This document shows, in pieces, positions 49,768-63,543 of a DNA stretch of 64,000 bases (its first letter is position 1; every line of letters begins with the position of its first letter). The position numbers were made by a program, and so were the translations under genes. Source of the DNA: an uncultured Acidobacteriaceae bacterium (GTDB taxonomy: Bacteria; Acidobacteriota; Terriglobia; Terriglobales; Acidobacteriaceae); assembly GCA_963834075.1 (NCBI GenBank), contig CAWIAH010000011.1, positions 476,989 through 540,988 of the forward strand. Direction: 5' to 3'. The notes beneath the pieces were generated by a model. It was not told the origin of the DNA. It did no database searches and saw only the letters and a program-made list of their open reading frames with translations.

Positions 49768-50745
49768 CTAACGGCCTTGTCCCTTGCCTACTGCGACTGC
49801 GGATCGTGGATCCCCTGCCGCAGCCGCCTGAATCTTGCCGGACGAAGATGCCGGTTGGCCTGTCCTATTGTGCGATTTGGAGAAGAACCTCTTCAACCGT
49901 TGCATCTGTTCCCGCCGGTAAAAAGCTACCAACTCCGGGGTTACCGGCCGCGGCTTGCGCCGGACGGTATCCCACAAGAAGCCCCCCATGACCATCAGGC
50001 CGCCAACGAATAGCGGCGGCTGCGTCATCTGCCGTGCCATACGGCACAGCTCCCACGCGGGATGATTTCCGACCGAATAATCCTTCGCGCCGTTTTTCCA
50101 GCGGGCTTTCAAAATTCCCTGCTGCGCCGTCCCCATGGCGCGGGCGTGCTGGCTCACCTTCTCAGTGAAAGTCCGGGTCTTCCAGCCCTTCATGCGTGAA
50201 GTAATCACCGCGATGTGGTCAATGCAGCCGCCCTTGACCGGAACATAGCCGCCAATTGCCTCAAAGCATTCCCGGCGGAAGAGCTGGCAGGCTCCCGAGA
50301 CATGCTCGATGCTGACAAAGCGATAGTCGTAAATCGAGCCCTCGCCCTCCGAGAATGGCGTGCCCACCAGTCCCAGCGAGGGATCTTCGGCCAGCTTCTG
50401 CAGCAGAAATTCGAAGTAACCCTGGTCCACCGAGATGTCGGCATCCAGGCTGCCGATTACCTGATAGTCAACCCCCTTCATACGCGCATAGCCGGCATTG
50501 AACGCGTGCACTTTTCCGGCAAAGTGGCGCTCTTGTCTTTCCGGCGTGCGCACCAGTTCGATCCACGGGTGCTGCGCCGCATATTTGAGCACCAGCTCAT
50601 CGGTGCCGTCGGTCGAGCCATCGCTGACCACCACCCACTTGACCGGCTTCACCGTCTGCGCCGCAATCGATTGCAGCGTCAGTTCGATGAAAGCTGCCTC
50701 GTTGCGGGCCGGGGTAATCAAAACGTATCTGGGAAGGGTTGCCAT
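49768..50745 (-). CDS. Glycosyltransferase family 2
   Basis: Start MATLPRYVLITPARNEAAFIELTLQSIAAQT...WVVVSDGSTDGTDELV...GSLDADIS. The ATG overlaps the upstream stop (TAATG). Confidence 0.85.
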   Translation of the reverse strand: MATLPRYVLITPARNEAAFIELTLQSIAAQTVKPVKWVVVSDGSTDGTDELVLKYAAQHPWIELVRTPERQERHFAGKVHAFNAGYARMKGVDYQVIGSLDADISVDQGYFEFLLQKLAEDPSLGLVGTPFSEGEGSIYDYRFVSIEHVSGACQLFRRECFEAIGGYVPVKGGCIDHIAVITSRMKGWKTRTFTEKVSQHARAMGTAQQGILKARWKNGAKDYSVGNHPAWELCRMARQMTQPPLFVGGLMVMGGFLWDTVRRKPRPVTPELVAFYRREQMQRLKRFFSKSHNRTGQPASSSGKIQAAAAGDPRSAVAVGKGQGR

Positions 50746-51959
50746 TAGCGGACTCCTGCTGTCGCGGCCGCGGGTTCGGTGTAGACCGGTTCGCCCGCAC
50801 CTTTTTCTTCGCACAAAAGCATGGTCAACGCCAGGAACATCCAGGCCTGCGTCCAGCGCATGTAGGAAGTTTTGATGGTGACCGTGCGCAAGATACGATA
50901 GTAAAAGTAGCCATCTTTTTCATCCCACATGTGCTTCATCGCCCAATTGAACGTGGGCCGGGCCAAAGCCAGCGGGTTCGGCTCCAAATCCTTGAACTCG
51001 AGCGGCGTGATTATGCTCTGCGCCACGCAGTGTGTATCCAACGGATAGCTGCGGTCGTGGAAGTATTTTACCGAGCCATCGGGAAGATAGAAGTTATCCT
51101 TGAAGAACTTATAGCCGCGGCGGATGCGTTCTTCAAACTCCGTGATGCCCCCGTACTGATCGATGGCGCGCAATCCACTGAGGTTGAAGCCGGTGTGAAA
51201 ATTATCGATCCAGCGCTGCGTCTCATGCTCGCCATACCACCACGAGCCATCTTCCAGTTGCTTCGAGGCGGAGAAGCGCGCTCCGGTCAACGCCGTCTTT
51301 AGATACTTTTCCTCGCCCGTGTGCTTATAAATACGGCAGAGCAGCCCGGAGGCGAGGAAATTCGCGTTGTGGGTGGTTCCCCGCAAACCGGGCAGCGGAT
51401 AGCTGAAGCCGGCGCGGTCGCCTTCATTCCAGAAGAGTACGTCGCGGATATAATCTGCCGCGCTCTTTGCCATGGTGAAGCAGCGTTCGCCGTGACCATG
51501 GTCGTAGGCATCCAGCAGCGCATTGGCGGAAAAGGCGGTGCACACCAGGTTCGGAGTCCAGCGCGGCACCAGCACTCCCCGGGTCTGCCAGGGAAAGTTG
51601 TATCCCCAGCACCAGTAATCGTGATTGGACGAGCGCAACTCGATCAGCCGCTCGATCATCTTTTCGGCGTATCCCTCCTCGACGCCGATGCCGACCTTGG
51701 CCAGTTTCAGGAAAGAAGTAAGAAAAAGACCCAGGCCCTTGGGATTCGCCGTCTTGGGAATCAGCAGCGCCCCACGCACATTCACCGGGCTGCGCTTCAG
51801 GAACTGCGTCATCACCAGGCGAAGCAGCTTGAAATCGAGGAAAGGCAGCGCCTCGAAAATCTTGCTGTTGAGCGCGTCGTAGGGCTCGTAGCCGGCGAAG
51901 TCTTCCTTGCGACAGTAATCCAAAAATTTGAGTAGTGCGCTTTCGACGTTGTATTCCAT
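50745..51959 (-). CDS. Conserved hypothetical protein, probably alpha/alpha-toroid (six-hairpin-like) fold; function unknown
   Basis: 404 aa and soluble. Repeated aromatic/Gly blocks: GYEPYDALNS, WCWGYNFPWQTRGVLVPRWTPNLVCTAF, THNANFLASGLL, DGSWWYGE, FHTGFNLSGL. No family could be named with confidence. Confidence 0.4.
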   Translation of the reverse strand: MEYNVESALLKFLDYCRKEDFAGYEPYDALNSKIFEALPFLDFKLLRLVMTQFLKRSPVNVRGALLIPKTANPKGLGLFLTSFLKLAKVGIGVEEGYAEKMIERLIELRSSNHDYWCWGYNFPWQTRGVLVPRWTPNLVCTAFSANALLDAYDHGHGERCFTMAKSAADYIRDVLFWNEGDRAGFSYPLPGLRGTTHNANFLASGLLCRIYKHTGEEKYLKTALTGARFSASKQLEDGSWWYGEHETQRWIDNFHTGFNLSGLRAIDQYGGITEFEERIRRGYKFFKDNFYLPDGSVKYFHDRSYPLDTHCVAQSIITPLEFKDLEPNPLALARPTFNWAMKHMWDEKDGYFYYRILRTVTIKTSYMRWTQAWMFLALTMLLCEEKGAGEPVYTEPAAATAGVR

Positions 51960-52068: not shown

Positions 52069-53319
52069 CTAAGAAGAGACCTGTCCCCGGGCCAACCCGG
52101 CCGGGACCTGCTGGGCCAGAATCTCGACAATCCGCTCCGCCGCGCGGCCATCCCAATATTTGGGAGTCGGCCTGCTGTTGTTTGTACGGCGTAGCTGCCG
52201 CCGGATGGCCAGCCGTATTCCTTCGCGCCGCACGCCCGCCAATGCGTTGGTCCCTTCATCGATTGTCACCGGCCGCTCCGTATTCTCACGCACCGTGACG
52301 CAGGGCAGTCCTAATCCGGTGGTTTCTTCCTGAATTCCGCCGGAGTCGGTGACAACCAGACGCGCATTTTTCATCAGGCAAAGAAAGTCCAGATAACCCT
52401 GCGGATCGATCATGCGGATCGCGCCGGGCTGATTCTGTTCCGAACCGTCTTCCGGTGCGGCCGGCGGGTTGGAGCAAAAATAGGTTTGCAGGCCGTTTTC
52501 CTGAATTTGCTTTTGTGTCCGCGGGTGCGCCGGAAAGATGATTGGCATCTCGGCCGCCAATTCGCTCAGCCCCACCAGGATCTCGCCGAAAGCATCTTTG
52601 TCATCGACATTGGCGGGACGATGGAGAGTCAGCAGCGCATATGCCTGCGGGGTGCGGGAATCGTCCGCGTCCAGCCCAGGCTCCTTCGGCCCCGGCTTCA
52701 TGAGTCCAAGCCGCTCAAGTAGCGTCGACTGGTCGGCTCTCGGCCGGGCGTCGAACAACGAATCGATCATCGTGTTGCCAACCAAAAACATCCGCTCCCG
52801 CGCAATTCCTTCATTTTCGAGATTGCGCAACCCGCTCTCTTCGGTGACAAATAAGATGTCCGACAAATGATCCGTCAAGACCCGGTTGATCTCCTCCGGC
52901 ATGCTGCGGTCAAAGGAGCGCAATCCCGCCTCAACGTGAGCAATCAGCGGCCGGCGTTCCGAGGGGTAGACGACTTTTGCCGCCACCAGCGCACACGCGA
53001 TCGTCGAATTCACGTCCCCGGCGACCATCACCACGTCCGGAGCCTCTTTGAGCAGCACCGGCTCAAAGCGCTTCATGATTTCCGCTGTCTGCACCACGTG
53101 GGAAGCTGAACCCACGCCCAGAAAAACATCGGGTGCGGGCAAGTTCAAATCGGCAAAGAAGGCATCCGACATGCGCGCGTCATAATGCTGCCCGGTGTGC
53201 ACCAGCACGGAACTGATGACTTCCTGTTTCGCGGTCTGGTTGTGCCGCGCCATCGCCTTCAAAATAGGTGCTGCTTTCATGAAGTTCGGGCGCGCGCCGA
53301 CTACGATCATCGCCTTCAT
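52069..53319 (-). CDS. wecB: UDP-N-acetylglucosamine 2-epimerase (non-hydrolysing), WecB/WbpI-like
   Basis: MKAMIVVGARPNFMKAAPI, HTGQHYD, MVAGDVNST, HVEAGLRSFDRSMPEEINR and VVTDSGGIQEETT are present. The gene carries two low-complexity insertions. Confidence 0.88.
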   Translation of the reverse strand: MKAMIVVGARPNFMKAAPILKAMARHNQTAKQEVISSVLVHTGQHYDARMSDAFFADLNLPAPDVFLGVGSASHVVQTAEIMKRFEPVLLKEAPDVVMVAGDVNSTIACALVAAKVVYPSERRPLIAHVEAGLRSFDRSMPEEINRVLTDHLSDILFVTEESGLRNLENEGIARERMFLVGNTMIDSLFDARPRADQSTLLERLGLMKPGPKEPGLDADDSRTPQAYALLTLHRPANVDDKDAFGEILVGLSELAAEMPIIFPAHPRTQKQIQENGLQTYFCSNPPAAPEDGSEQNQPGAIRMIDPQGYLDFLCLMKNARLVVTDSGGIQEETTGLGLPCVTVRENTERPVTIDEGTNALAGVRREGIRLAIRRQLRRTNNSRPTPKYWDGRAAERIVEILAQQVPAGLARGQVSS

Positions 53320-53452: not shown

Positions 53453-54666
53453 CTAGCGCGCACCCACCTCGGCAACGCGTCCTGCCTGGGTGAGTTGCAT
53501 GACTTTTTCGGCTACCCGGCGGGCCTGCTCAAAGGTCAGTTGCGGGAACATCGGCAGCGAAACGATCTCCGGCGCAACCCGTTCGGTCACCGGAAAATCT
53601 CCTGTCTTGTAGCCCATGCCGGCATACGCCTTTTGCTGGTGCAGCGGAATCGGATAATGGATCGCCGTGGCAATGCCTGCGGCACTCAAATCCGCCTGCA
53701 GTTTCTCGCGGTGCTGTACCCGCACCACGTACAAATGATAGACCGCCTTTGACCAGGATGGCTCCTGCGGCAGCGCCAGTTCCGTAGCGCCTTCGAACAA
53801 ACGCGAATATTCCTTGGCCAGGCCACGCCGTTTTTCATTCCAGCCTTCCAGCTTCTTCAACTTGGCGTGCAGAATGCCGGCCTGAATCGTATCCAGGCGG
53901 CCGTTGTAGCCTTCCACATCGTGATAGTACTTCTTGCTCTGCCCATGATCGCGCAGCATGCGGATCGTGCTTGGCCACCGCCTCGTCGTTGGTAGTCACC
54001 GCCCCGGCTTCGCCGCAGGCTCCCAGATTTTTCCCGGGATAGAAGCTGAAGGCCGCCGCCCGGCCCATCGAGCCCGCGCTGGTGCCAGCTGCTTGTCTTT
54101 CGCCGAAAAATATTTCGCGCCATGCGCCTGGCAGGATCTTCCACCACCATCAAACCATAGCTGTCCGCCAGTTCCAGAATGCGGTCCATGTCCGCCATCT
54201 GCCCGTAAAGATGGACCGGCACGATCGCGGTCACGGGCGGTTCGGTCCCCAGATGCATCAGCTTGCCGGAGGCATCGCGATGGCACTCCTCCGCCAGAAA
54301 GCGTGACAGTTTGGCGGGATCGAGGTTGTAGGTGCTCTCGTCGATATCCACGAACACCGGCTGCCCACCCGCCTGCGAAATCGCTTCCGTGGTGGCAATG
54401 AAGGTATTGGGCACGGTGATCACCAGATCGCCAGACTTCACCCCCGAAGCCATTAGCGCGAAACGCACGGCGTCGGTACCGTTGGCTACGCCGATGCAAT
54501 ACTTGGTATCGCAGAACTGGGCGAAATCGCGCTCAAATTCCTCGAGCATGCTGCCGCCGATGAAGTGCGCCTGCCGGATGCAGTCGCGGAATATTTCAAC
54601 CAACTCCGCTTCCATTTCCACATGCGGAGTAACCAGATCCAGAAATGGAATCATGCCTTGTGCCAT
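53453..54666 (-). pseudogene. DegT/DnrJ/EryC1-type PLP aminotransferase (WbpE-like), readable only across about 4 frame breaks
   Basis: The protein is spread over four frames:
- Frame 1: MAQGMIPFLDLVTPH...GVANGTDAVRFAL...LMVVED.
- Frame 2: [15 protein letters not shown].
- Frame 3: [36 protein letters not shown].
- Frame 4: [33 protein letters not shown]...
Concatenated, these give a normal-length DegT protein. Confidence 0.8.
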
Positions 54667-54667
54667 A

Positions 54668-55249
54668 TTATGATTTTCTCCCCTTGGTTGCAGTGTTCAC
54701 TTGCTTGCCGCCATCACCCTTTTTTCCGCCATCCGGTTTCTTCCCGTCCTGCAAGGACCGCAAGACTCTTGCCGGATTTCCCGCCACAATGCTGTCCGCC
54801 GGCACATCTTTGGTGACCACGCTGCCCGCGCCCACCAGCGCATTCTCGCCGATCGTGAGATTGGCAAAGAATGGTCGCTCCGCTGACCAATGGATGCTCC
54901 CTTTTTCACCCGGGTCGTCTCCACCTTCCAGTCGGCTTCGGTCTGCAACTGCCCGTCGCCGGTGGTGGCCCGCGGATAGGAGTCGTTGATGAAAGTCACG
55001 CCATGGCCGACGAAGACGTTGTCTTCGATCTCACGCCTTCGCAGACAAAAGTATGGCTGGAGATCTTGCAATTCTTGCCCGACGCTGGCGTTCTTCTGAA
55101 TCTCGACGAAGGCGCCGATCTTTGTGTTCGTCGCCGATCGCGCATCCATAGAGATTGATGAATTTCGAAAGCTTCACGCCTTCGCCCAGTTTCACGTCCG
55201 GGGCGATGGAGAGGAATTGGTCCGGGGCCTGGCCCTGCTTTGCGCTCAT
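54668..55249 (-). pseudogene. Hexapeptide-repeat N-acetyltransferase (WbpD-like), readable only across about 5 frame breaks
   Basis: The conserved segments lie in alternating frames: MSAKQGQAPDQFLSIAPDVKLGEGVKLSKFINLYGCAIGDE | TKIGAFVEIQKNASVG | KNCKISSHTFVCEGV | [22 protein letters not shown]...KGASIG | SGATILC | [34 protein letters not shown]. Confidence 0.8.
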
Positions 55250-55287
55250 GGATTGTCCTGAAGAATTTCCGATGGAATTTGTTGTGA

Positions 55288-56295
55288 CTAGAGCTTTACC
55301 AGCTTGCCGCGATCTTTCAACGACTCTTCCGCCGCCTCGAGCATCCGCACCACCCGCAAGCCGGCCACGCCGTCGTTCAATGGGAGCGCGGTTGGCGGCG
55401 ATGCAGTCCACGAAGTGGCTGGTCTCCTGCCGCAGCGCCTCGGTCTGTTCGATCTGCGGCGCCCACATGTCGCCCGAGCGGTAGCTGACCAGCAGGTCGT
55501 AGACGCCCTTGCGCTGTTCTTCATCGACACGCCCTTGTCATAGACTTTGATCTTCTCGTCGGCTTCCAGATCGTTCCACACCAGCATTTTCTTCTCGCCG
55601 CCGATCAGCGTGGTCCGCACCTTCACCGGCGAAAGCCAGTTGACATTGATGTGCGCCATGACGTTGTCGGGGAAATAAATGGTGATGAAGGCGATATCCA
55701 CATGGCCGTTCAGGTGCTTTTGGCCGGTGGCGACGATGGCATCCGGCTCTTTCGTGAATCAGGTAGTCCATGATGGAAAGATCGTGCGGCGCCAGATCCC
55801 AGATGACGTTGATATCGTGCTGGAACAATCCCAGGTTGACGCGCGTGGAGTCGTAGTAATAAGAGATTGCCCAGCACGCCCTCTTCCACCAGTTGCCGGA
55901 TCTTGCTGCACCGCGCCGGTGAACAGGAAGGTGTGGTCCACCATGATCTGCAGCTTTTTCTTGGCGGCCAGTTCAATCAGCTCTTCCGCCTGCGCCACGT
56001 TGGCGGTGAAGGGCTTCTCCACAAAAATATGTTTGCCGTTGTTGAGCGCGGTCTTGGCCAGCTCATAGTGCGTCCAGACCGGAGTCACCACCGCAATGAC
56101 GTCAATCTCGGGCGAGGTGAGCAGTTCATCGCAGTCCTTGGTAACCTTCGCCTGCGGGAATGCCTGCCTGGCCCGGTTCAGGCAATCGGTCCGCTTGTCG
56201 GTGATTGCGACCACCTCTGAGATGCCGGCATGATTAAAATTCCGGGCCACATTCGGCCCCCAATAGCCATACCCGATGATTCCAACTTTGATCAT
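55288..56295 (-). pseudogene. Gfo/Idh/MocA-family NAD-dependent sugar 3-dehydrogenase (WbpB-like), readable only across about 5 frame breaks
   Basis: The conserved segments lie in alternating frames: MIKVGIIGYGYWGPNVARNF...EKPFTANVAQAEELIELAAKKKLQIMVDHTFLFTGAVQ | KIRQLVEEGVLGNL | YYYDSTRVNLGLFQHDINVIWDLAPHDLSIMDYLI | EPDAIVATGQKHLNGHVDIAFITIYFPDNVMAHINVNWLSPVKVR...KVYDKGV | DEEQRKGVYDLLVSYRSGDMWAPQIEQTEALRQETSHFVDCIAANRAP | LNDGVAGLRVVRMLEAAEESLKDRGKLVKL. Confidence 0.8.
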
Positions 56296-56446: not shown

Positions 56447-57589
56447 TCAGTACGCTCCGTCACCCGACACCACAGCCGCCGGGGTACGGAGAAGAATCTT
56501 TACGTCCAGCCAAAGCGACTGCTTGCGGGCATACTGCAAGTCCAGCCGCACCATCTCGTCAAATTTCGTCCGGCTGCGTCCGTTGACCTGCCACAGGCCG
56601 GTAATTCCCGGACGCGCTTCGAGCAACCGCCGGCGATGCCACACATCGTAAGCTTCCACTTCATAGGGCAGTGGAGGCCGTGGACCTACCAGCGACATCT
56701 CGCCAATCAGCACATTGAAGAACTGCGGAAGCTCATCCAGACTGGTGCGGCGCAAGATCTTGCCCACCGCCGTAACCCGCGGATCATCGGTGATCTTGAA
56801 CACTCCATCGCGCCCCTTCTGGTCGGCTTTGCCGGCGATGAGCTTGCGCACATACTCTTTGTGAATGTCGGCGCTGTTGTTCACATACATGGAACGAAAC
56901 TTAAGAAAGGTGAAGCGCTGGCCATACTGACCAATGCGCGGTTGCCGGAACAGGACCGGGCCCTTCGACGACAACTTCACCGCCACTGCGATCAGCAGAA
57001 ACAACGGAGAAAACACCACGACGGCCACCGTGGCGCCAGCAATGTCCATCAGGCGCTTGAAACCACGAGCCACCCGCTTCCCTCCCTCTTCCTGATGCAG
57101 ATCAGGATAGAGCGCGGAATCCTGCGGATGAGTCGGCGTCTCTTCACCCCACTCCTCGGGAAAAAGATGGAACGAAATATTGATCTGGCTGAACTGTTCG
57201 AGCGTCAGGCTGTCGCGCAAAGCGCTGCTCACCCGCAGCAGCATGGTGCCGAGAATGGATTTCTTGAGGTCCACCGCGATCTCGGTGAACATCACACCCA
57301 CGACCGCATCATTCTTGTACCAGCCGGTGATATCGGTGTCGCGGGTGGATAGGGCCAGCGCCGAAAAAATATTTTGCAGAACCCGGCTATTTTTCCCGCC
57401 GGGTGAAAACCGTCCGGTATCGAGCAGCATGAGCAGAAAAGGCTTGCCTGATCGCTCGGCGCGTTTGCGCTCCAGACAGACCATGCGATGAAAATGCTCC
57501 TCCGGCAATACCTCAAGACTTTGCGTCCGCGGGCTTTGCTTTGCCGGAACCGCCGGTTCCACTTTGCTTTCAAGCTCTGAAACCTTCAC
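56447..57589 (-). CDS. Priming polyprenyl-phosphate sugar-phosphate transferase (Bac_transf family) with N-terminal degenerate GGDEF-like domain
   Basis: The C-terminal catalytic domain follows a single TM helix ([24 protein letters not shown]): [25 protein letters not shown]...[43 protein letters not shown]...[14 protein letters not shown]. The N-terminal ~120 aa align to a GGDEF fold. The preferred start is GTG 57589 with AGGAGGAAGGC upstream. The ORF is open to 57703. Confidence 0.8.
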
Positions 57590-57784
57590 GCCTTCCTCCT
57601 CTTTCCGCCTCTCATGCCAACGCGCACGAGAGGGTGCACCCCGACCACTCGTCGAAAAATTGTATGAGCAAGTTGCGATTGCGAGACGACAACCCGCAAT
57701 CACTTTTTAAAGGAGGGAGGGCTTGCTTTTTTGCGATGCCTCTACGTGGAGTCACCGCTGTGTTAACCATCTTGCAAAACTCGT

Positions 57785-58774
57785 TTATTCTACCGCAGCC
57801 GGACTGTAACGGGAATAATAATCCTCTTCATCATTACCCGTCGAGTTATTAACCACTAATCCTAACAAGCGGGAGCGTTCGATGGCCCCCAGGCCGCGTT
57901 GCAGCGCCTGCCGTTCGGTCCGCCCCGCCCGTACCACCAACAGGACCCCATCGGCAAATCTTGCCCAAACACTGGTATCGGCCAAGGGAAGTACCGGCGG
58001 CGAATCAATCACGATCCAGTCAAAGCGCAGCGCCAGCAAATCCAATAAGTCGGCTAGTTTGCCGGATTGCATTAGTTCGAGCGGGTTTTCCGGCGGATGG
58101 CCGGCCGGCATCAGCCAGAATCCCGGGCCATCCAAATGATAGATATTGCTGACCGTCCGGCTCTTGGACTGCAGCCATTCGCTCAAGCCCGCTGGCCGGC
58201 TACCGCCGAAAAGTCCGGCTTGGGTGGGGCGGCGCAGATCGCCTTCAAGCAGCAACACCTTCTGTTGTTTGCGCCTCGCCAGAGTCGACGCAAGATTGGC
58301 GGTCACCAGGCTTTTGCCTTCCCCGGAAAGGGTGCTGGTGACCAGCAGTTTCTTCAAGCAGCGCTCCTGCTGCAACCGCCGCAACCGTACCCCTAGAAAG
58401 CGGAACTTTTCCGCTCCCAGGCTTTCCTTTTCGGTGAGCGATACCAGGCGACTGGTCGCGGTAGGCGCAACCTGCACGTTGGGACAATCGGCCAACTGAA
58501 AATCGCCTTTGATCCCTTCGGTCCTGGGCTCAGTCCTGGGCTCGGCGGCTGCCGAATTGGAGAAGCTGGACGCAGCCGGTTTCGAATCAGTAATCGGGCG
58601 TTCGGCAGTTTGCTCGCCGCTGACTCTGGTCTCGCGAATCTTGGGTCCGGCAGCCAGCTCGGAGGTCTCCGCCTTTTGCGACTCGTCCAGAATGGCGACT
58701 GACGGCGGCTCGGGGAAGGTGAACTCCACCCGCTCCGACTCCGACCTTTGCAACGCTTCAAAGATGCGGCTCAT
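57785..58774 (-). CDS. Chain-length-determinant tyrosine autokinase-like ATPase (BY-kinase catalytic subunit, EpsG-like)
   Basis: MSRIFEALQRSE N-terminus. Walker A VTSTLSGEGKSLVTANLA. Walker A' VLLLEGDLRRP. Walker B FDWIVIDSPPVLP. C-terminal Tyr cluster EEDYYSRYS. Confidence 0.78.
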   Translation of the reverse strand: MSRIFEALQRSESERVEFTFPEPPSVAILDESQKAETSELAAGPKIRETRVSGEQTAERPITDSKPAASSFSNSAAAEPRTEPRTEGIKGDFQLADCPNVQVAPTATSRLVSLTEKESLGAEKFRFLGVRLRRLQQERCLKKLLVTSTLSGEGKSLVTANLASTLARRKQQKVLLLEGDLRRPTQAGLFGGSRPAGLSEWLQSKSRTVSNIYHLDGPGFWLMPAGHPPENPLELMQSGKLADLLDLLALRFDWIVIDSPPVLPLADTSVWARFADGVLLVVRAGRTERQALQRGLGAIERSRLLGLVVNNSTGNDEEDYYSRYSPAAVE

Positions 58775-59799
58775 TTGCGCCTGCCTTCGGGTTCGACCGC
58801 CAGCGCAGCCTCAGCATCGTTCGACTTGATATTCTGCAGATAATCATGCAACTGCAATAGGGTTTTCACCGCCTGCCAAACCTCCTCACTGCTCTCCGCC
58901 ACCGCCTGTCCGAACTGCCCGTCGGCTCGGCTCGGGCCGCCATTGCCATTGCTCGGGCTGCTGTTTCCCGGTCCGCGGCGAACCACGCCCAGACGGAAAT
59001 CCGCCGCCACTTCATCCACAATCTCCGGCTCGACCGAAGCCGTCTGCCGCGCAAATGCCGTGATCAGTGCATTCTCACAAACCGTATTGATCAGCCGCGG
59101 AATCCCCCGCGAGTGACGATACACCTTGGCAATGGTATTCGGCGGAAAAAGAGTTTCGACGTTCGTCGTAGCGCCTGCCAGTTGCAGGCGGCGCTGGATG
59201 TAGCCACGTGTCTCTTCGAGATTCAGGGGCTCCAGTTGCGAGCGCAAGGCGATGCGCTGCTTCAGTTGCCGCAACTCCATCGAATCCAGCTTTTCGTCGA
59301 GTTCGGGTTGGCCCACCAGCAGAATCTGCAGCAGTTTTTCCTGCGCCGTTTCGAGGTTGGTCAGCAGGCGAATCTCTTCGAGCACCGCCACCGGCAGATG
59401 ATGCGCCTCGTCCACTACCAGCACGGTGGTCAGTTTCTGCTGATGCCGCGAAATCAGGTAGCTGCTCAGCTCCAGCAGCAGATCGCTTTTGCTCTTGCCC
59501 GATGCCGGCAACCCGAAATCCCCGGCCACATATTGCAGAAATTCCAGCGGGGTCAGCAGGCTATTGAAGACGTAAGCGTAGGAGACGCTGCGCCGGTTGA
59601 GCAATTCGAGCAGGCAGCGCACCAGCAGCGTCTTGCCAGTACCCACTTCGCCGGTCATGACCACGAAACCTTTGTGCCGCCGCACCCCATAGTAGAGCGC
59701 CGCCAGCGCCTCGTTGTGTCGCCGCGTGGGAAACAGGAATGAGGGATCGGGGGTGATCTCGAATGGGTTACGCTTCAGATGGTAAAAAGTTTTGTACAT
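58771..59799 (-). CDS. AAA ATPase of the ExeA-like / PEP-CTERM-locus secretion-ATPase type
   Basis: FYHLKRNPFEITPDPSFLFPTRRHNEALAAL..., Walker A MTGEVGTGKT and Walker B VLVVDEAH. ATGA overlap with the downstream kinase gene. Confidence 0.8.
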   Translation of the reverse strand: MYKTFYHLKRNPFEITPDPSFLFPTRRHNEALAALYYGVRRHKGFVVMTGEVGTGKTLLVRCLLELLNRRSVSYAYVFNSLLTPLEFLQYVAGDFGLPASGKSKSDLLLELSSYLISRHQQKLTTVLVVDEAHHLPVAVLEEIRLLTNLETAQEKLLQILLVGQPELDEKLDSMELRQLKQRIALRSQLEPLNLEETRGYIQRRLQLAGATTNVETLFPPNTIAKVYRHSRGIPRLINTVCENALITAFARQTASVEPEIVDEVAADFRLGVVRRGPGNSSPSNGNGGPSRADGQFGQAVAESSEEVWQAVKTLLQLHDYLQNIKSNDAEAALAVEPEGRRK

Positions 59800-59806
59800 A
59801 CATTTA

Positions 59807-61411
59807 TCAGCCGCGCAAAAAACTCAAGGCCACGCCCATCAGGACCACCATGCTCATGATTCCGCCAAGCGCCAACTCCAGGCGGAAACGGCGATGCCGC
59901 GAGCCTTCCTCTTCGGCGGTAACCAGCGGCGGAATCTCCGCCATAATCTCCGCCGAAACCAGCTTCTCGAACTCGGTCTCATCGTAAATCCGCGGATCCA
60001 GAAACTCCGCAATCATGGCCACCACAAAGCCTACCGCGAGTCCTGCCGCCAGACCGCCCAGGCTGTAGAGAAAACGCTTGGGAGCCGAAGGCCGGGTGGG
60101 CAGGCTGGCCGGATCCTGGGTGCGGAACTGCAAGCCTTCCTGGCTCTTGCCCAAATTTGCCGCCAGCTCCGCGGCGTGCTTCTGCGCCAATAGCTTCTCG
60201 TAATCTTTCTGCGACTGATCCTGATCGCGGGTCAAATCGGCCAGATCCTGCTCGCGTGCCGGGGCGCTATTGAGGCGAATTTGATATTGATTGATCTGGG
60301 CCGTCAGGCCATCGATGGCACGCTGACGGTTGGCGATATCGATGGCGTTGGCTTTTAATTGACTGCCCACCTCCATCGCCGCTGCTGCAGTCGGGTTGCT
60401 CAAGTCGACCGTAACCGGGGTATCGTGCCCCGCAGCCTGGCTGGCTTGCGCTCGCAGCTCCGCTACCCGTTGCGCCCGCCGGCTCTCGGTTTCGGCGATC
60501 TGTTCCCTTTTCTTTTTCACGTCAGGATGCTGATCGGTGTACTTGGAGAGCAGATCGGAGAGGTCATCTTTTTCTTTGGCTAACTCTGCGTCGATGGCGG
60601 ACAGTCCCGACGGGGTCGGATCTCCGGGGTTCTTCGCGGAGCCGGGAGCAAGCGATTTGTACTGGGTCTGCAAAGACTCCAGCAACGCTTTGTGCTGCTC
60701 CGCCTGCCCTAACTGATCCTGTTCGGCCTGTAACTGTCCTTGCAAGCCTTGCAGGATCTGAAGATTGCTTTGCATCTGCGTAGGCAGCTCTCCCATGTGC
60801 CGGTCTTTGAAGTCGCGGACCTTGGCGTCCTGAGCGTCCATTTTGGCGCGCGCGTCTTCGAGTTGCGCGTCCAGAAACTTCACCGTATTGGTGTCACTCT
60901 GCGCCTTCATCTCCAGACTTTGACTGGTAAGCATTTCCCCCAGTTCGGCCGTGACTTCCTGCGCCGCCTGCGGCGTATCGGCCTCGAAAGAAATGTCAAA
61001 GGAACTGACATCACTCCTGCCCGGCGAGCGCACCGGATCAATCAGCAGATCTTTATTCATTTTGGCCACCAGCGCATCGTCGCCCATGTGCTTGCCGGGA
61101 TAAGGATTGAAGCGCTGGGCAAGACTGAGCATTACGCTGCGGCTACGGAGCTGTGTCGTGATCCCTTCCAGCCGGTCCTGTAAATCGTTGGCCGGATTGG
61201 CCCCCGAAATACTTTCCGAAACCGCGGGCTGCAATACCAGGATCAGCGTGCTGGAGCGATAGACCGAGGGCATCATCCAGCTGGCAGTCCAGATCAAACC
61301 CCATACCACAAACAGTGGCACCACCACATACCAGCGGCGCCGCACCATGAGGTCGCGGTATTTCTTCAGATCGAGTGGCGTCTGTGCCGGTTCGTTATAT
61401 TCGTCTGCCAT
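59807..61411 (-). CDS. wzz: Polysaccharide chain-length determinant (Wzz/GumC-like, PCP family)
   Basis: N-terminal Wzz block YRDLMVRRRWYVVVPLFVVWGLIWTASWMMPSVYRSSTLILV. Long coiled-coil periplasmic region. C-terminal TM helix (LGGLAAGLAVGFVVAMIAEF). Confidence 0.82.
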   Translation of the reverse strand: MADEYNEPAQTPLDLKKYRDLMVRRRWYVVVPLFVVWGLIWTASWMMPSVYRSSTLILVLQPAVSESISGANPANDLQDRLEGITTQLRSRSVMLSLAQRFNPYPGKHMGDDALVAKMNKDLLIDPVRSPGRSDVSSFDISFEADTPQAAQEVTAELGEMLTSQSLEMKAQSDTNTVKFLDAQLEDARAKMDAQDAKVRDFKDRHMGELPTQMQSNLQILQGLQGQLQAEQDQLGQAEQHKALLESLQTQYKSLAPGSAKNPGDPTPSGLSAIDAELAKEKDDLSDLLSKYTDQHPDVKKKREQIAETESRRAQRVAELRAQASQAAGHDTPVTVDLSNPTAAAAMEVGSQLKANAIDIANRQRAIDGLTAQINQYQIRLNSAPAREQDLADLTRDQDQSQKDYEKLLAQKHAAELAANLGKSQEGLQFRTQDPASLPTRPSAPKRFLYSLGGLAAGLAVGFVVAMIAEFLDPRIYDETEFEKLVSAEIMAEIPPLVTAEEEGSRHRRFRLELALGGIMSMVVLMGVALSFLRG

Positions 61412-61417: not shown

Positions 61418-62917
61418 CTAGCGTCCTAGCGGCCGGCTGAATTGATAAGCGATGGTAACCCAGCCGCGGTTGTGATTCACATTAAGAGTGGTTACGGTCG
61501 GTCCATTCTCCTGCTGGTAGTCACGTGCGTACCCCAGCGTGGTGGTAAAGCTGTGCCCCATTTTCTGCTCCCAGAGCAGGCTGCCCGAGACCGTCTTAAG
61601 ATTGCTGAAAAAAGTCGTGGCCCCGGCGTCAAGGGCGCGGCTGCCGGCGTAGAGAACGCCAAATTCGAGATTGCCGCTGCGAGTCATCTGCCGGCGTACT
61701 GCACCATCCCCCGTGGTCACATCCACCGCCGTCAGCAGGCCGCCGCCGTCGCTTACCTTGCGGACGCCGCTGGCCCGCACGCTGGTGCGTTTTCCCTGCC
61801 AGCTGAAGCTTGCTCCCCCCGCCACCGACCAGCGGTTCTGCGCGGTATTGACCGACGTCACGGTCACCAATGGCAACACGATATTGGTGGACACCACCGT
61901 ATTGCTGAGTTGGGTGTACTCCGGGCCGGCGAAGAAGGCGAGCACGGTATTCGATTGCAGATACAAGGTATGGAACAACAAAATGCTCTGGGTATCGACA
62001 CTCTCGACCGCCGGACTGAAGCTGAGATGGTTGAACGTGTAGGCGATGCCGCTCCAGTTGCGCGGCGTAAACCGGTGGGTGTAGAAGCCATCCCCCTCCT
62101 GGCTCTTGCTGTTCACCAGCCCGGCGGCTCCCGTGGGCGTAGCCCCAAACCATGAGAAGTCTGCGTTGCCGCTGGCTCCCACCATGTCGCTCGCACTGTA
62201 TTGATATGTCAGCTCCACCGTGCCATTGTCGTCAGTGTGACGCGCCAGCGGAGTGATTACGCCCAGGTTCGGCTGCTGTACGATGCCGCTGCCGAGGCCG
62301 CTGATATCCCCTTGCAGCTGATTGAAGAATCCCGTGGTCAGTACGAAACGGTCGTAGATGCGCAGCTTCACGTGCGGGCTCAAACGGTAGCGCAGGTCAA
62401 ACTTTGCGTTCTGCATGTTCTGGTTGTAGGCAGAAAAACGTTGATTGAAGGTATAGCCGCCGTCGTAGTCCAGGTCCAGAAACAATCGCGGGCGGGAAAT
62501 GTCCACTCCGATATTAGGGAATACCGAATACGACAGGCCACCGACGCGCGGCGACTCCTGTGACAGCAGGTTATCGTCGTAGGTGGCTTCGCCGCCGATG
62601 CCGCCGAACCAGGTATTCCTGCGCTGCTCCTCATCGCTGAACTGCAGCGAACTGGCGTCGATGTTCAAAGGCAAAGGCACCGGCGCCATGGTGGAGTGCG
62701 CCGCAGTCACCGGCTCTTGCGAAGCATCGGCCGGCGGAACGTTATCTTGCCCCGCTTCGCCAGTTGGGGCCTGCCCCGGAGTCTGAGCGCCACTTTCGCT
62801 CTGCCCCGGTTCCTGCGTCTGCGAAGGCTGCGCCGGAGTGCTCTGCGCCCCCAGCCCAGTCACGCTTCCCACCAAAACCATCATCGCTAAACCACGGCTG
62901 ATCGAGCTCACCTTCAC
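61418..62917 (-). CDS. Putative outer-membrane beta-barrel protein of the PEP-CTERM-locus-associated type
   Basis: Signal peptide MKVSSISRGLAMMVLVGSVTGLGAQ. Pro/Gln/Glu-rich linker. Then alternating beta-strand pattern to the C-terminus (...GWVTIAYQFSRPLGR). The position between wza and wzz matches those loci. Confidence 0.6.
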   Translation of the reverse strand: MKVSSISRGLAMMVLVGSVTGLGAQSTPAQPSQTQEPGQSESGAQTPGQAPTGEAGQDNVPPADASQEPVTAAHSTMAPVPLPLNIDASSLQFSDEEQRRNTWFGGIGGEATYDDNLLSQESPRVGGLSYSVFPNIGVDISRPRLFLDLDYDGGYTFNQRFSAYNQNMQNAKFDLRYRLSPHVKLRIYDRFVLTTGFFNQLQGDISGLGSGIVQQPNLGVITPLARHTDDNGTVELTYQYSASDMVGASGNADFSWFGATPTGAAGLVNSKSQEGDGFYTHRFTPRNWSGIAYTFNHLSFSPAVESVDTQSILLFHTLYLQSNTVLAFFAGPEYTQLSNTVVSTNIVLPLVTVTSVNTAQNRWSVAGGASFSWQGKRTSVRASGVRKVSDGGGLLTAVDVTTGDGAVRRQMTRSGNLEFGVLYAGSRALDAGATTFFSNLKTVSGSLLWEQKMGHSFTTTLGYARDYQQENGPTVTTLNVNHNRGWVTIAYQFSRPLGR

Positions 62918-63543
62918 GGGACCACCACACTGTCCCGGGCCTGCAATTTAACATTCTGGTCTACGTTCTTCCCCTTGACTACATCCTTGTAATTGAACGG
63001 CAGGCGGGTCTCGCTTCCGTCCTCGTTACGGCGAAGCACATAGATGGATCGCTGCTTGGCAAAATCGCGAAAGCCGCCGGCCAAGGCAATGGCATCCAGC
63101 ACCGTGGTCGAATTGGTCAGCAGATACGAGCCCGGCTTCATCACCTCGCCCAGCACATTGAAGCGCTTGCTCATCATCTGCTGCACGATCACAGTGACTT
63201 GCGGGTCGGAGATATACGTATGCAGACGGGCAGTGATTTCTTTTTCCAGCTGGCGCGGCTTCTTGCCGGCCGCCTGTACTTCGCCCACCAGGGGCAGCGA
63301 AATTGCGCCATCGAGCCGCACCGTCACCGTCCGGGTAATGTCCTTTTCGTTCCAAACGTTGATTACCAGCACGTCATCGGCGCCAATTATGTAGTCGTCC
63401 TGGGCATCCTTGGTGGGTGCACCCGGCGCGGCGTCGCCGGATGGCGTGGTTGCCTGCGCGTGTCCCCAGGCCAGGCTGGTACATAGAAGCGCCGCCAGCG
63501 GCAGCACGAGCCAGCCGCCCCGAGCCCGGCCAGTGGTTTTCAT
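62914..63543 (-). CDS. wza: Polysaccharide export outer-membrane protein (Wza/EpsE-like: Poly_export plus SLBB)
   Basis: ATG 63543 gives MKTTGRARGGWLVLPLAALLCTSLAWG. Then YIIGADDVLVINVWNEKDITRTVTVRLDGAISLPLVGEVQAAGKKPRQLEKEI...VTVIV...FNVLGEVMKPGSY.....TVLDAIALAGG. 4-nt overlap with the next gene. Confidence 0.85.
   Translation of the reverse strand: MKTTGRARGGWLVLPLAALLCTSLAWGHAQATTPSGDAAPGAPTKDAQDDYIIGADDVLVINVWNEKDITRTVTVRLDGAISLPLVGEVQAAGKKPRQLEKEITARLHTYISDPQVTVIVQQMMSKRFNVLGEVMKPGSYLLTNSTTVLDAIALAGGFRDFAKQRSIYVLRRNEDGSETRLPFNYKDVVKGKNVDQNVKLQARDSVVVP

What the first reader, a model, noticed from the sequence alone, without database searches (positions are those of the whole stretch)
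56447..57589. Priming sugar-phosphate transferase fused to a degenerate GGDEF-like domain that keeps the RxxD I-site register: candidate c-di-GMP-gated initiation of EPS synthesis
About 120 residues precede the single TM helix and the Bac_transf catalytic domain (roughly nt 57149-57508). These residues can be threaded by eye onto a diguanylate-cyclase fold:
- [20 protein letters not shown] aligns with the ...ALLLLDIDHFK strand.
- [35 protein letters not shown] aligns with VL+.+A..L....R..D...RYGGDEFAVLLP.
- INISF aligns with the VT(V/I)S(I/A)G strand.

The active-site GG(D/E)EF is replaced by KNDAV (nt 57302-57316). The substrate/metal region (FK.IND.YGH..GD) is shortened. An RxxD motif (RDTD, nt 57332-57343) sits exactly five residues upstream of the GGDEF position, which is the canonical inhibitory-site register.

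Degenerate GGDEF domains that retain the I-site are established c-di-GMP receptors controlling polysaccharide synthesis, for example PelD in Pseudomonas and PssE in Listeria. I do not recall a described case where such a domain is fused directly to the priming phosphoglycosyl transferase of a Wzx/Wzy pathway.

The same window encodes a REC-PilZ-PilZ protein (13014-14126). A c-di-GMP layer on this locus is therefore plausible.
Basis: partly seen in the sequence, partly recalled or inferred. Interest (0 to 1): 0.72.

Follow-up and report, generated by a model that had tools for sequence, protein, structure and literature searches.

The report
Dead GGDEF domain fused to sugar-phosphate transferase
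The enzyme that starts exopolysaccharide assembly in this soil acidobacterium carries an unannotated, catalytically dead diguanylate-cyclase-type (GGDEF) domain that keeps the c-di-GMP feedback-site motif, so it may be a direct second-messenger switch on a polysaccharide pathway type with no such switch known; ligand binding is untested.

Summary
Window 56447-57589 (-) encodes a 380-aa protein: a disordered head (1-27), a 120-residue N-domain (28-147), a linker, a re-entrant membrane helix and an intact Bac_transf phosphoglycosyl-transferase (PGT) domain (178-374).

The N-domain is a divergent GGDEF domain:
- The top 50 Foldseek PDB hits to its AlphaFold model are all GGDEF domains or diguanylate cyclases.
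- A diverse family profile hits GcbC GGDEF (5euh) at E 2.6e-5.
- hhalign against a PleD-family profile gives 86% probability.
- One homologue reaches Pfam's GGDEF cut-off.

RDTD (83-86) aligns with PleD R359xxD362, and KNDAV (92-96) with GGEEF. The GTP-binding loop lacks six residues.

R83 and D86 are essentially invariant across about 250 homologues, while the GGDEF position varies freely. That is the pattern of a receptor domain. However, the third I-site arginine (PleD R390, PelD R402) is Thr here.

The fusion is conserved in 78 of the 80 best Acidobacteriota genome loci, always in XrtA/PEP-CTERM-type Wzx/Wzy loci just after the tyrosine kinase gene. Databases call these proteins only "sugar transferase", and I found no literature precedent.

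c-di-GMP gating of initiation is plausible but unproven (about 0.45).

The parts
56447..57589 (-). Complete gene, 380 aa: GGDEF-like N-domain plus monotopic phosphoglycosyl transferase
   Evidence: ORF and sequence. An identical 380-aa product is on record in NCBI, ENA and Logan. The gene is 100% identical in an independent assembly, L084.
57594..57600 (-). Shine-Dalgarno-like AGGAGGA, 4 nt upstream of the GTG start
   Evidence: Read directly from the sequence. It supports the start at 57589 over the in-frame GTG at 57703.
57509..57589 (-). Residues 1-27: poorly conserved, predicted disordered head
   Evidence: pLDDT below 50 for residues 1-23. Columns are variable in the homologue alignment.
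57149..57508 (-). Residues 28-147: degenerate GGDEF-fold domain (a1-b1-a2-b2-b3-a3-b4)
   Evidence: AlphaFold block pLDDT is about 76-94 over the core. The Foldseek top 50 are all GGDEF domains or diguanylate cyclases, best E 1.9e-6. Profile against PDB gives E 2.6e-5 to 5euh. hhalign gives 86%. Homologue P0207 reaches Pfam PF00990 at 23.9 bits against a 23.8 cut-off.
57449..57472 (-). ERKRAERS (residues 40-47), C-terminal end of helix a1. R43 aligns with PleD R313 (secondary I-site).
   Evidence: The stretch from R43 to D57 aligns without gaps to PleD R313 to D327. E40, R43 and R46 are invariant. The same E..RA.RSGKP motif occurs in GcbC, so it may be a general GGDEF feature.
57332..57343 (-). 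RDTD (residues 83-86), the I-site RxxD motif
   Evidence: Aligned to PleD R359-D362, SiaD REYD, IsPadC (5llw) RDTD and DosC RSSD. R83 and D86 are each conserved in 81/81 fused, 25/25 stand-alone and 138/141 cluster representatives.
57302..57316 (-). KNDAV (residues 92-96), replacing the catalytic GG(D/E)EF
   Evidence: Alignments. These five columns are among the most variable in the family.
57233..57247 (-). Residues 115-119 on helix a3. T115 aligns with PleD R390 (third I-site Arg). R119 is an invariant R/K one turn downstream.
   Evidence: hhalign with the diverse profile and the HMMER alignment to DosC AERIRSR. Conservation.
57065..57148 (-). Residues 148-175: low-confidence acidic linker with conserved LYPDL (Y161), a remnant of the GGDEF a4 'ADxALY' motif
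   Evidence: pLDDT below 50 for 148-159. HMMER aligns 'adsalY' to ADKALY, ADEALY and ADKAMY of GcbC, DosC and 5llw. Y161 is Tyr in 98/112 homologues.
56972..57043 (-). Residues 183-206: hydrophobic helix with a Ser194-Pro195 break, probably a re-entrant membrane helix
   Evidence: Aligned to the WbaP segment DIVGSLSIIIVLSPVLLYIS. The monotopic topology is inferred from what is known of PglC and WbaP, not tested here.
56468..57058 (-). Residues 178-374: Bac_transf (PF02397) catalytic domain, including SLDELPQ (D285-E286) and GPRPP
   Evidence: Pfam E 6.9e-67. TIGR03025 scores 291.6 bits. WbaP hits at E 2e-48 and PglC at E 2e-29, with the motifs aligned.
57785..58774 (-). Upstream neighbour: cytoplasmic tyrosine autokinase (BY-kinase) with a C-terminal Tyr cluster (EEDYYSRYS)
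   Evidence: TIGR03018 and TIGR01007 hits. C-terminal sequence. A homologue lies upstream on the same strand in 70 of 71 related loci, and the first N-domain ORF starts right after it wherever it is found.

Best explanation
The gene encodes the initiating polyprenyl-phosphate sugar-1-phosphate transferase (PGT) of a Wzx/Wzy-type, XrtA/PEP-CTERM-style exopolysaccharide locus in an acidobacterium (Terriglobia).

**Shown**
- The catalytic core is a normal monotopic PGT.
- Its cytoplasmic N-terminus is a GGDEF-superfamily domain that cannot make c-di-GMP. It has no GG(D/E)EF motif and the guanine-binding loop carries a six-residue deletion.
- Evolution has kept the allosteric I-site motif RxxD essentially invariant.

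**Inferred**
- The domain is a c-di-GMP sensor.
- When c-di-GMP rises, an intercalated c-di-GMP dimer binds at R83/D86, perhaps helped by R119 on helix a3 and by the arginines on a1.
- This binding pairs or re-orients two N-domains. The partner could be another PGT subunit, a stand-alone paralogue or a tandem copy.
- The PGT then becomes active, so polysaccharide synthesis starts at its first membrane step.
- Activation rather than inhibition is assumed by analogy with PelD, PssE, YdaK, BcsA and Alg44, and with EpsW-driven dimerisation of the PGT EpsZ.
For: **Fold and homology**
- AlphaFold model with a confident core and GGDEF topology.
- Foldseek top 50 are all GGDEF domains or diguanylate cyclases.
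- Family profile against PDB: top 7 hits all GGDEF, best E 2.6e-5.
- hhalign 86%, P 4.8e-6, against 0.087 for the reversed control.
- Pfam GGDEF reaches its gathering cut-off on family member P0207, which matches the query N-domain at E 5e-27.

**Receptor-like conservation**
- R83 and D86 are conserved in 244 of 247 sequences.
- E40, R43, R46, G89, W90 and G98 are also near-invariant.
- The five GGDEF-position columns vary freely.

**Dedicated PGT module**
- The only recurrent partner domain is Bac_transf, found in 35 of 52 longer representatives.
- 78 of 80 genome loci carry the fusion.

**Works in pairs**
- 25 of 80 loci add a stand-alone copy about 3 kb upstream.
- Some proteins carry two tandem copies that both keep R-x-T/S-D.

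**Catalytic domain intact**
- Bac_transf E 7e-67. The DE dyad, GPRP and the SP helix break all align to WbaP.

**Context**
- The locus holds Wza-like export, a chain-length determinant (PCP), an ATPase, a BY-kinase, Wzx, a Wzy-like protein and glycosyltransferases.
- The organism has at least one PilZ protein.

**Literature**
- Degenerate GGDEF domains with RxxD are established c-di-GMP receptors for EPS machines (PMC8461298; list).
- PGT activity can be controlled post-translationally by a partner that promotes dimerisation (PMC12802240).
Against:
- The column aligned to PleD R390 / PelD R402 is Thr or Ala in this family. R402 is reported as absolutely required in PelD.
- R119 as a substitute is only a helical-geometry argument. 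I had no model coordinates.
- R43 and R46 also occur in ordinary cyclases such as GcbC, so their conservation is not specific evidence for a secondary I-site.
- No diguanylate cyclase gene lies within 10 kb in any of the 83 related loci scanned.
- No c-di-GMP riboswitch or other Rfam family is present in the window.
- The invariable position right after the tyrosine kinase gene fits a phosphorylation or docking role equally well.
Confidence: 0.45

Rival explanations
1. The GGDEF-like domain is a ligand-independent structural module. It would serve as a dimerisation or scaffold domain that replaces the 4-TM plus DUF region of large PGTs such as WbaP. Alternatively it is a docking or substrate domain for the adjacent tyrosine kinase, with regulation by Tyr phosphorylation rather than by a nucleotide. 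On this reading RxxD is conserved for structural or protein-contact reasons.
For: - The N-domain ORF, fused or stand-alone, starts right after the BY-kinase gene wherever that gene is found in related loci.
- The kinase has a C-terminal Tyr cluster.
- Y91 is conserved and Y161 sits in a disordered acidic linker.
- Tyr phosphorylation of a small PGT (CapM by CapB) is a known precedent (PMC12802240).
- The third I-site Arg is missing.
- Stand-alone and tandem copies also fit a pure dimerisation role.
Against: - Structural roles rarely hold both the R and the D of a surface loop motif in 244 of 247 sequences while the former active site drifts.
- In GGDEF domains without I-site function these positions are not generally conserved (established knowledge, not tested here).
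- Seven conserved arginines in a 120-residue domain suggest an anionic ligand.
Confidence: 0.3
2. The domain is a sensor for a different small molecule bound at the remodelled I-site or A-site. Candidates are another cyclic dinucleotide, (p)ppGpp, GTP, or a nucleotide-sugar or pathway intermediate giving feedback control.
For: - The I-site is only partly canonical, with T115 in place of Arg, and carries family-specific invariant residues (T85, W90, T102, E103, R119).
- PleD structures with ppGpp or pppGpp bound together with c-di-GMP exist (9g85 and 9g86, listed).
Against: - RxxD in this exact register is specifically associated with c-di-GMP in every characterised case I know of (established knowledge).
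- The GTP-binding loop is deleted and the A-site columns are unconserved, so an A-site ligand is unlikely.
Confidence: 0.15
3. The resemblance to GGDEF is a chance match in a low-information N-terminal extension, or an artefact of a wrong start codon or a frameshift.
For: - The query sequence alone gets no Pfam hit, and only an E = 0.04 NCBIfam hit to SiaD.
- The window does contain frameshift errors nearby.
Against: - Sequence-profile, profile-profile and structure searches all converge on GGDEF in one register.
- The gene is identical in independent assemblies.
- The domain has at least 820 homologous 50%-identity clusters at E <= 1e-10.
Confidence: 0.02

Closest known systems
PelD (Pseudomonas aeruginosa Pel system), a degenerate-GGDEF c-di-GMP receptor
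   Same: - Catalytically dead GGDEF domain that keeps RxxD.
- Membrane-anchored.
- Encoded inside an EPS locus.
- Controls polysaccharide output post-translationally (PMC8461298).
   Different: - PelD has 4 TM helices, a GAF domain and the GGDEF domain, and carries no enzyme. It acts by recruiting the glycosyltransferase PelF in a synthase-dependent pathway.
- Here the domain is covalently fused to the initiating PGT of a Wzx/Wzy-type pathway.
- PelD needs R402. The aligned residue here is Thr.
PssE (Listeria monocytogenes) and YdaK (Bacillus subtilis), I-site receptors in EPS operons
   Same: - Small membrane-associated proteins whose degenerate GGDEF domain binds c-di-GMP through the I-site and activates an EPS machine encoded in the same operon (papers listed: PMC4125290, PMC9800504).
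- The stand-alone 175-aa copies in related loci resemble this separate-receptor layout.
   Different: - Their partners are processive GT2-type synthases, not a PGT.
- No detectable close sequence relationship to them was seen here, and they were not compared directly.
Canonical diguanylate cyclase GGDEF domains with feedback I-sites (PleD, WspR, GcbC, DosC, SiaD)
   Same: - Same fold and same register.
- RxxD lies five residues before the GGDEF position.
- The a1 E..R..R-S-G-K-P motif and the b1 LLxLD motif are shared.
- These are the best sequence and structure matches.
   Different: - No GG(D/E)EF motif.
- Six-residue deletion in the FKxINDxxGHxxGD guanine-binding loop.
- a4 and b5 are reduced to a disordered LYPDL remnant.
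- R390-equivalent is Thr.
- Not a cyclase.
EpsW-EpsZ of Myxococcus xanthus (response regulator activating a large monotopic PGT)
   Same: - Post-translational control applied directly to the initiating PGT of a Wzx/Wzy pathway by a small cytoplasmic signalling domain.
- Proposed to work by promoting the dimeric active form (PMC12802240).
   Different: - The regulator there is a phosphorylated receiver domain encoded separately.
- Here it is a GGDEF-derived domain that is usually fused.
- EpsZ is a large monoPGT with 4 TM helices and a DUF domain.
Monotopic PGTs PglC (small) and WbaP (large)
   Same: - The catalytic core is homologous (E 2e-29 to PglC, 2e-48 to WbaP).
- The Asp-Glu dyad, GPRP and the Ser-Pro helix break are all aligned.
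   Different: - PglC has nothing in front of the re-entrant helix.
- WbaP has four TM helices and a nucleotide-binding DUF domain.
- This protein has a soluble GGDEF-like domain in that position.

Membership tests
GGDEF domain superfamily (Pfam PF00990 fold) | Palm-like a1-b1-a2-b2-b3-a3-b4 fold | tested here: met
   AlphaFold secondary-structure order matches. The Foldseek top 50 PDB hits are all GGDEF domains or diguanylate cyclases, E 1.9e-6 to 1.5e-3, probability 1.00.
GGDEF domain superfamily (Pfam PF00990 fold) | Significant sequence-profile similarity to GGDEF domains | tested here: met
   The query alone gives no Pfam hit. At family level:
- Profile A3 against PDB gives E 2.6e-5 (GcbC) and 9e-4 (DosC).
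- hhalign gives 86%, P 4.8e-6.
- Homologue P0207 scores 23.9 bits against the 23.8 gathering cut-off.
Active diguanylate cyclases | GG(D/E)EF active-site motif | tested here: not met
   KNDAV occupies the aligned position, and these columns vary across the family.
Active diguanylate cyclases | Guanine and phosphate-binding loop (PleD K332, N335, D344 in FKxINDxxGHxxGD) | tested here: not met
   All alignments show a six-residue deletion with no conserved equivalents.
Degenerate-GGDEF I-site c-di-GMP receptors (PelD, PssE, YdaK, PopA type) | RxxD five residues upstream of the GGDEF position | tested here: met
   R83-D-T-D86, then five residues, then K92. The motif aligns to PleD R359xxD362. R and D are conserved in 244 of 247 homologues.
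Degenerate-GGDEF I-site c-di-GMP receptors (PelD, PssE, YdaK, PopA type) | Third I-site arginine on helix a3 (PleD R390, PelD R402) | tested here: not met
   The aligned column is T115, which is T or A across the family. An invariant R/K (R119) lies one turn downstream. Whether it can substitute could not be checked without coordinates. By motif alignment, GcbC (5euh, the best match) has His at this column.
Degenerate-GGDEF I-site c-di-GMP receptors (PelD, PssE, YdaK, PopA type) | Measured c-di-GMP binding that depends on RxxD | not testable with these tools
   Needs DRaCALA, ITC or MST on purified protein and on R83A and D86A mutants.
Monotopic phosphoglycosyl transferases (Bac_transf, PF02397) | Bac_transf catalytic domain with the Asp-Glu dyad and the PRP motif | tested here: met
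   Pfam E 6.9e-67, covering profile positions 1-178 of 179. SLDELPQ and GPRPP align to WbaP.
Monotopic phosphoglycosyl transferases (Bac_transf, PF02397) | Single re-entrant helix with a Ser-Pro break, placing both flanks in the cytoplasm | tested here: inconclusive
   The FSPLF motif aligns to WbaP LSPVL. Topology is inferred by homology only.
NCBIfam TIGR03025 EPS_sugtrans (large EPS PGTs) | Full-length match above the 295.55-bit cut-off, including the N-terminal TM and DUF region | tested here: not met
   The score is 291.6 bits, and only profile positions 251-445 match. The N-terminal half is replaced by the GGDEF-like domain.
XrtA/PEP-CTERM-type EPS locus | Neighbouring export protein, chain-length determinant, ATPase, tyrosine kinase and FemAB-like genes of the XrtA-associated families | tested here: inconclusive
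   The best NCBIfam hits are the XrtA-associated models (TIGR03027, 03007, 03015, 03018, 03019), but all fall below their equivalog cut-offs. I did not look for an exosortase gene.

The most novel reading that the evidence does not exclude
This is the founding member of an unrecognised class of c-di-GMP receptor. A GGDEF-derived module would be dedicated to phosphoglycosyl transferases and would switch on the first membrane-committed step of Wzx/Wzy-dependent polysaccharide synthesis. That would extend direct c-di-GMP gating from synthase-dependent systems (cellulose, alginate, Pel, PNAG) to the most widespread polysaccharide assembly route. The module would use a variant I-site (RxTD plus an arginine shifted one helical turn) and would act as a pair of domains: fused with fused, fused with stand-alone, or tandem.
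Probability: 0.35. Interest if true: 0.82.

Novelty: new variant of a known kind. Interest (0 to 1): 0.62.

Why it matters
Direct post-translational control by c-di-GMP is well documented for synthase-dependent exopolysaccharides. [quoted passage not shown]

A conserved sensor-type domain welded to the initiating enzyme gives a concrete protein in which to test the idea. Point mutants are obvious (R83, D86, R119), and PGT assays already exist.

The finding also does three other things:
- It assigns a fold and a testable function to an unannotated domain with at least 820 clusters (50% identity) at E <= 1e-10.
- It bears on how abundant soil and peat Acidobacteriota control matrix production.
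- It shows that GGDEF-derived receptor domains are under-counted by current Pfam thresholds.

Tried and rejected
1. **Pfam and NCBIfam on the query N-domain alone.** Pfam gave nothing and NCBIfam gave only an E = 0.04 hit to SiaD. This was too weak on its own, and family profiles were needed.
2. **First family profile (A1, close homologues) against PDB.** The GGDEF hits reached only E 0.13-0.35. hhalign with low-diversity profiles gave 43% probability and put an 8-residue gap in helix a3, which aligned R119 with PleD R386. The diverse-profile alignment superseded this.
3. **PleD-seeded homologue search.** It returned only PleD orthologues, so the GGDEF template profile has low diversity.
4. 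**Homologue search seeded with the most GGDEF-like member (P0207).** The aim was to find intermediates or PGT fusions with an intact GGDEF. Only 2 hits came back, which is uninformative.
5. **Canonical GGDEF genes.** None were found in the window by motif scan, and none within 10 kb in 83 related loci by a PleD-profile search.
6. **Rfam scan for c-di-GMP riboswitches or any RNA family.** No hits.
7. **Promoter and terminator scan around the gene.** Nothing above the shuffled background.
8. **Pseudogenised locus.** I considered this because the three downstream genes are frameshifted. It was rejected: an independent assembly that is 99.4% identical has them intact.
9. **Literature searches for a PGT with GGDEF or c-di-GMP.** No precedent was found in the open-access library. 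Subscription journals were not covered.
10. **Residue distances.** I could not obtain model coordinates, so the distance from R119 to the RxxD pocket was not measured.
Full report
**1. What is at the coordinates**

Window 56447-57589 (minus strand) is an intact 380-codon gene.
- It starts at GTG 57589, 4 nt after an AGGAGGA Shine-Dalgarno-like sequence (57594-57600). A longer in-frame ORF from GTG 57703 lacks such a site.
- Public collections hold exactly this 380-aa product, named only "sugar transferase", [quoted passage not shown] or [quoted passage not shown].
- Pfam finds one domain, Bac_transf (PF02397), at residues 178-374 with E 6.9e-67. It finds nothing in residues 1-167.
- NCBIfam's best model is TIGR03025 (EPS polyprenyl glycosylphosphotransferase). 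It matches only through its C-terminal half and falls just below cut-off. For the N-terminal 167 residues there is one weak hit (E 0.043) to the diguanylate cyclase SiaD.
- The range 57149-57508, which the finding's wording attaches to Bac_transf, is in fact the N-domain core.

**2. The N-domain is a conserved family**

- A word-indexed search with residues 1-167 found 175 proteins.
- An exhaustive HMMER search of 1.84 billion cluster representatives found 1750 clusters at E <= 1e-3, 820 at E <= 1e-10 and 63 at E <= 1e-30.
- Three architectures occur:
  - about 380-aa proteins with the N-domain fused to a PGT;
  - about 175-aa stand-alone N-domains that end just before the point where the membrane helix would start;
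  - proteins with two tandem N-domains followed by a PGT (P0121, P0165, P0175).
- Among 52 representatives of 200 aa or more, Bac_transf is the only recurrent partner domain (35 of 52). One aspartokinase fusion looks like read-through from a neighbouring gene.

**3. Fold**

- An AlphaFold2 model built on 69 homologues has a confident core. The 10-residue block means of pLDDT run from about 76 to 94 over the core. The secondary-structure order is a1(30-47), b1(51-57), a2(68-81), b2(87-91), b3(96-101), a3(106-127), b4(137-143).
- Foldseek against the PDB returns GGDEF domains or diguanylate cyclases as all 50 top hits. These include T. maritima DGC 4urg (E 1.9e-6), 3ezu, SiaD 7e6g, IsPadC 5llx, PleD 2v0n, WspR 3bre, GcbC 5euh and DosC 4zve. 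All have probability 1.00. TM-scores of 0.45-0.56 are normalised to a 167-residue query, 40 residues of which are disordered.

**4. Sequence-level homology and register**

- A profile of close homologues gave only sub-significant PDB hits, but three of the top four were GGDEF domains in one register.
- A profile of 42 N-domains filtered to 55% identity or less (A3) gives significant hits. GcbC GGDEF 5euh scores E 2.6e-5 over profile positions 4-136, DosC 9e-4, SiaD 4.7e-3, IsPadC 8.5e-3. The seven best hits are all GGDEF.
- hhalign of A3 against a PleD-family profile gives 86% probability and P 4.8e-6 over 121 columns. A reversed-template control gives P 0.087.
- Pfam's own GGDEF model reaches its gathering threshold on family member P0207 (23.9 against 23.8 bits, E 3.8e-5). 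It scores 20-21 bits on P0184 and P0213. P0207 matches the query N-domain at E 5e-27.
- Residue equivalences against PleD (true PleD sequence recovered):

| Query | PleD | Role in PleD |
|---|---|---|
| R43 | R313 | secondary I-site |
| D57 | D327 | metal-binding Asp |
| R83 / D86 | R359 / D362 | primary I-site RxxD |
| Y91 | Y367 | precedes GGEEF |
| K92-V96 | G368-F372 | GGEEF active site |
| T115 | R390 | third I-site Arg |
| R119 | H394 | none known |
| S139 | S414 | b4 strand |

- The family's conserved LYPDL (Y161) aligns with the canonical a4 motif ADxALY.
- A six-residue deletion removes most of the FKxINDxxGHxxGD guanine-binding loop.

**5. Conservation pattern**

The sample was 81 fused and 25 stand-alone copies from genomes, plus 141 cluster representatives.
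- R83 is conserved in 81/81, 25/25 and 138/141, and D86 in the same numbers.
- T85, E40, R43, R46, G89, W90 and G98 are equally constrained.
- R119 is always R or K.
- The five columns at the former GGDEF motif are among the most variable in the domain: K/E/Q/R, N/D/E/T, N/D/G/H, S/A/C/T, V/I/T.

So selection has abandoned the catalytic site and holds the allosteric-site motif fixed. That is what one expects of a receptor-type degenerate GGDEF domain.

Two caveats apply.
- The E..R..RSGKP motif on a1 is shared with the active cyclase GcbC. It may therefore be a general GGDEF feature rather than a dedicated secondary I-site.
- The third primary I-site arginine is Thr here. A review reports this arginine as absolutely required in PelD (R402; PMC8461298). 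R119 lies one helical turn (i+4) further along the same helix, and an arginine there might reach the site. I had no coordinates to check this. By motif alignment the best PDB match, GcbC, has His at the R390 column. Its entry 5euh is a c-di-GMP-bound structure. From memory, the ligand in 5euh sits at the I-site.

**6. The catalytic half**

- Residues 170-380 align end to end with the catalytic domain of WbaP (E 2e-48) and with PglC (E 2e-29). SLDELPQ (Asp285-Glu286), GPRPP and the Ser194-Pro195 break in the hydrophobic helix are all conserved.
- By homology with these monotopic enzymes the helix is re-entrant. The N-domain and the active site would then lie on the same, cytoplasmic face (inference from established PglC and WbaP structures).
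- The protein is in effect a PglC-size core. In place of WbaP's four TM helices and DUF domain it has a soluble GGDEF-like domain.

**7. Genomic context**

The whole stretch from about 34 kb to 63.6 kb is one minus-strand polysaccharide locus. In transcription order:

| Window coordinates | Product |
|---|---|
| 62914-63636 | Wza-like export protein |
| 61418-62917 | conserved 499-aa protein with no family hit |
| 59807-61411 | chain-length determinant |
| 58771-59799 | AAA ATPase |
| 57785-58774 | tyrosine autokinase with a C-terminal EEDYYSRYS cluster |
| 56447-57589 | this PGT |
| 53453-56295 | WbpB-, WbpD- and WbpE-like genes |
| 52069-53319 | UDP-GlcNAc 2-epimerase |
| 47935-50814 (two ORFs) | GT2 glycosyltransferases |
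| 45142-46962 | asparagine-synthase-like protein |
| 43721-45145 | O-antigen-ligase / Wzy-like protein |
| 42081-43670 | MOP (Wzx) flippase |
| 34064-35443 and 38302-39639 | GT4 glycosyltransferases |
| 37159-38205 | FemAB-like protein |

The best NCBIfam models are the XrtA/PEP-CTERM-associated ones, all below their equivalog cut-offs.

A scan of 185,579 species-representative genomes with the motif [ED]TD[VI][TM]GWY gave 308 confirmed loci. The 80 best are all Acidobacteriota MAGs from soil and peat: Terriglobia, Acidobacteriaceae and Candidatus Sulfotelmatobacter.
- In 78 of 80 the N-domain is fused to a PGT.
- 25 of 80 also carry a stand-alone copy about 3 kb upstream.
- In 70 of 71 loci with enough flank, homologues of the chain-length determinant and the tyrosine kinase lie upstream on the same strand (ATPase 69, export protein and 499-aa protein 68 each). 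The first N-domain ORF, fused or stand-alone, starts right after the kinase gene.
- No canonical GGDEF gene lies within 10 kb in any of the 83 loci scanned.
- The window has no Rfam hit, and so no c-di-GMP riboswitch.
- The REC-PilZ-PilZ protein at 13014-14126 is confirmed. It only indicates that the organism probably uses c-di-GMP.

**8. Sequence quality**

The three genes downstream of the PGT look frameshifted in the window. An independent assembly with the identical PGT (L084) is 99.4% identical over 13.2 kb and has them intact, at 334, 192 and 403 aa. The 21 single-base indels and 57 mismatches cluster in two patches, 53.9-55.9 kb and 60.2-60.8 kb. L084 has its own break in the chain-length determinant. 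These are assembly or polishing errors, not pseudogenes. The PGT gene is unaffected.

**9. Mechanism**

Shown:
- a functional-looking monotopic PGT carries a catalytically dead GGDEF-fold domain;
- the I-site RxxD of that domain is under strong purifying selection;
- the module is dedicated to PGTs and often occurs in two copies per locus or per protein.

Inferred:
- c-di-GMP, probably as an intercalated dimer as at other I-sites, binds at R83/D86;
- binding pairs or re-orients N-domains and switches the PGT on;
- second-messenger level is thereby coupled to the first lipid-linked step of a Wzx/Wzy pathway.

I put this at about 0.45. The main rival, at about 0.30, is a ligand-independent scaffold or a docking and substrate module for the adjacent tyrosine kinase. 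Kinase control of a small PGT has a precedent in CapB-CapM (PMC12802240). A different ligand gets about 0.15. Chance or artefact is excluded.

**10. Comparison with known systems and novelty**

The domain belongs to the GGDEF superfamily but fails the cyclase criteria. In function it most resembles the degenerate-GGDEF I-site receptors PelD, PssE and YdaK. It meets the RxxD criterion and fails the third-arginine criterion at the aligned column.

Those receptors serve synthase-dependent machines and are not fused to the enzyme. A 2025 study of EpsW-EpsZ says that post-translational regulation of Wzx/Wzy pathways is incompletely understood, and mentions c-di-GMP only for synthase-dependent systems.

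Searches for PGT together with GGDEF or c-di-GMP found no description of this architecture. That library covers open-access papers only.

I therefore rate it a new variant of a known kind. It is a new, widespread and unannotated branch of receptor-type GGDEF domains, attached to a new class of target.

Noticed in passing
window 53894-55907 and 60218-60821: Two patches are dense in single-base indels and mismatches relative to a 99.4%-identical independent assembly (L084). In the window they break the WbpB-like, WbpD-like and WbpE-like genes into several ORFs each. L084 has those genes intact but has its own break in the chain-length determinant. These look like local assembly or polishing errors, possibly from strain mixtures, rather than pseudogenes.
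   Followed up: yes
L001 8001-8525 and 11475-12611; also L016, L020, L023, L030 and about 20 other loci: In 25 of 80 related loci a stand-alone 175-aa copy of the GGDEF-like domain follows the tyrosine kinase gene. In L001-L003 an ATP-grasp gene and an aspartokinase-like (AA_kinase + ACT) gene then lie between it and the fused N-domain-PGT. Some metagenomic proteins (P0121, P0165, P0175) carry two tandem N-domains before the PGT. This suggests the domain works as a pair.
   Followed up: partly
window 57785-58774 (-) and residues Y91 and Y161 of the PGT: The tyrosine autokinase directly upstream has a C-terminal EEDYYSRYS cluster. The PGT's N-terminal region has a near-invariant Tyr (Y91) and a conserved Tyr in a disordered acidic linker (LYPDL, Y161). 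The PGT could be a kinase substrate, as CapM is for CapB in S. aureus.
   Followed up: no
window 61418-62917 (-): This 499-aa ORF lies between the Wza-like export gene and the chain-length determinant. It has no Pfam or NCBIfam hit, yet it is conserved at the same position in 68 of 71 related loci. It is an uncharacterised core component of this locus type.
   Followed up: partly
window 13014-14126 (-): This 370-aa protein has a weak receiver-domain match (below Pfam's cut-off) followed by two PilZ stretches (PilZ E 4e-19). It is unlinked to the EPS locus, 42 kb away.
   Followed up: partly
window 50745-51959 (-) and 39948-41843 (-), 35507-36907 (-): Several large ORFs inside the EPS locus have no confident family assignment. 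The 404-aa ORF has only a weak glucuronyl C5-epimerase-like hit. The 631-aa and 466-aa ORFs have no NCBIfam hit.
   Followed up: no
window 32611-33372 (-): A HetI-type 4'-phosphopantetheinyl transferase gene (E 2e-43) sits at the edge of the polysaccharide locus, next to a dTDP-glucose 4,6-dehydratase gene (30205-31293). This hints at an acyl- or carrier-protein-dependent modification nearby.
   Followed up: no
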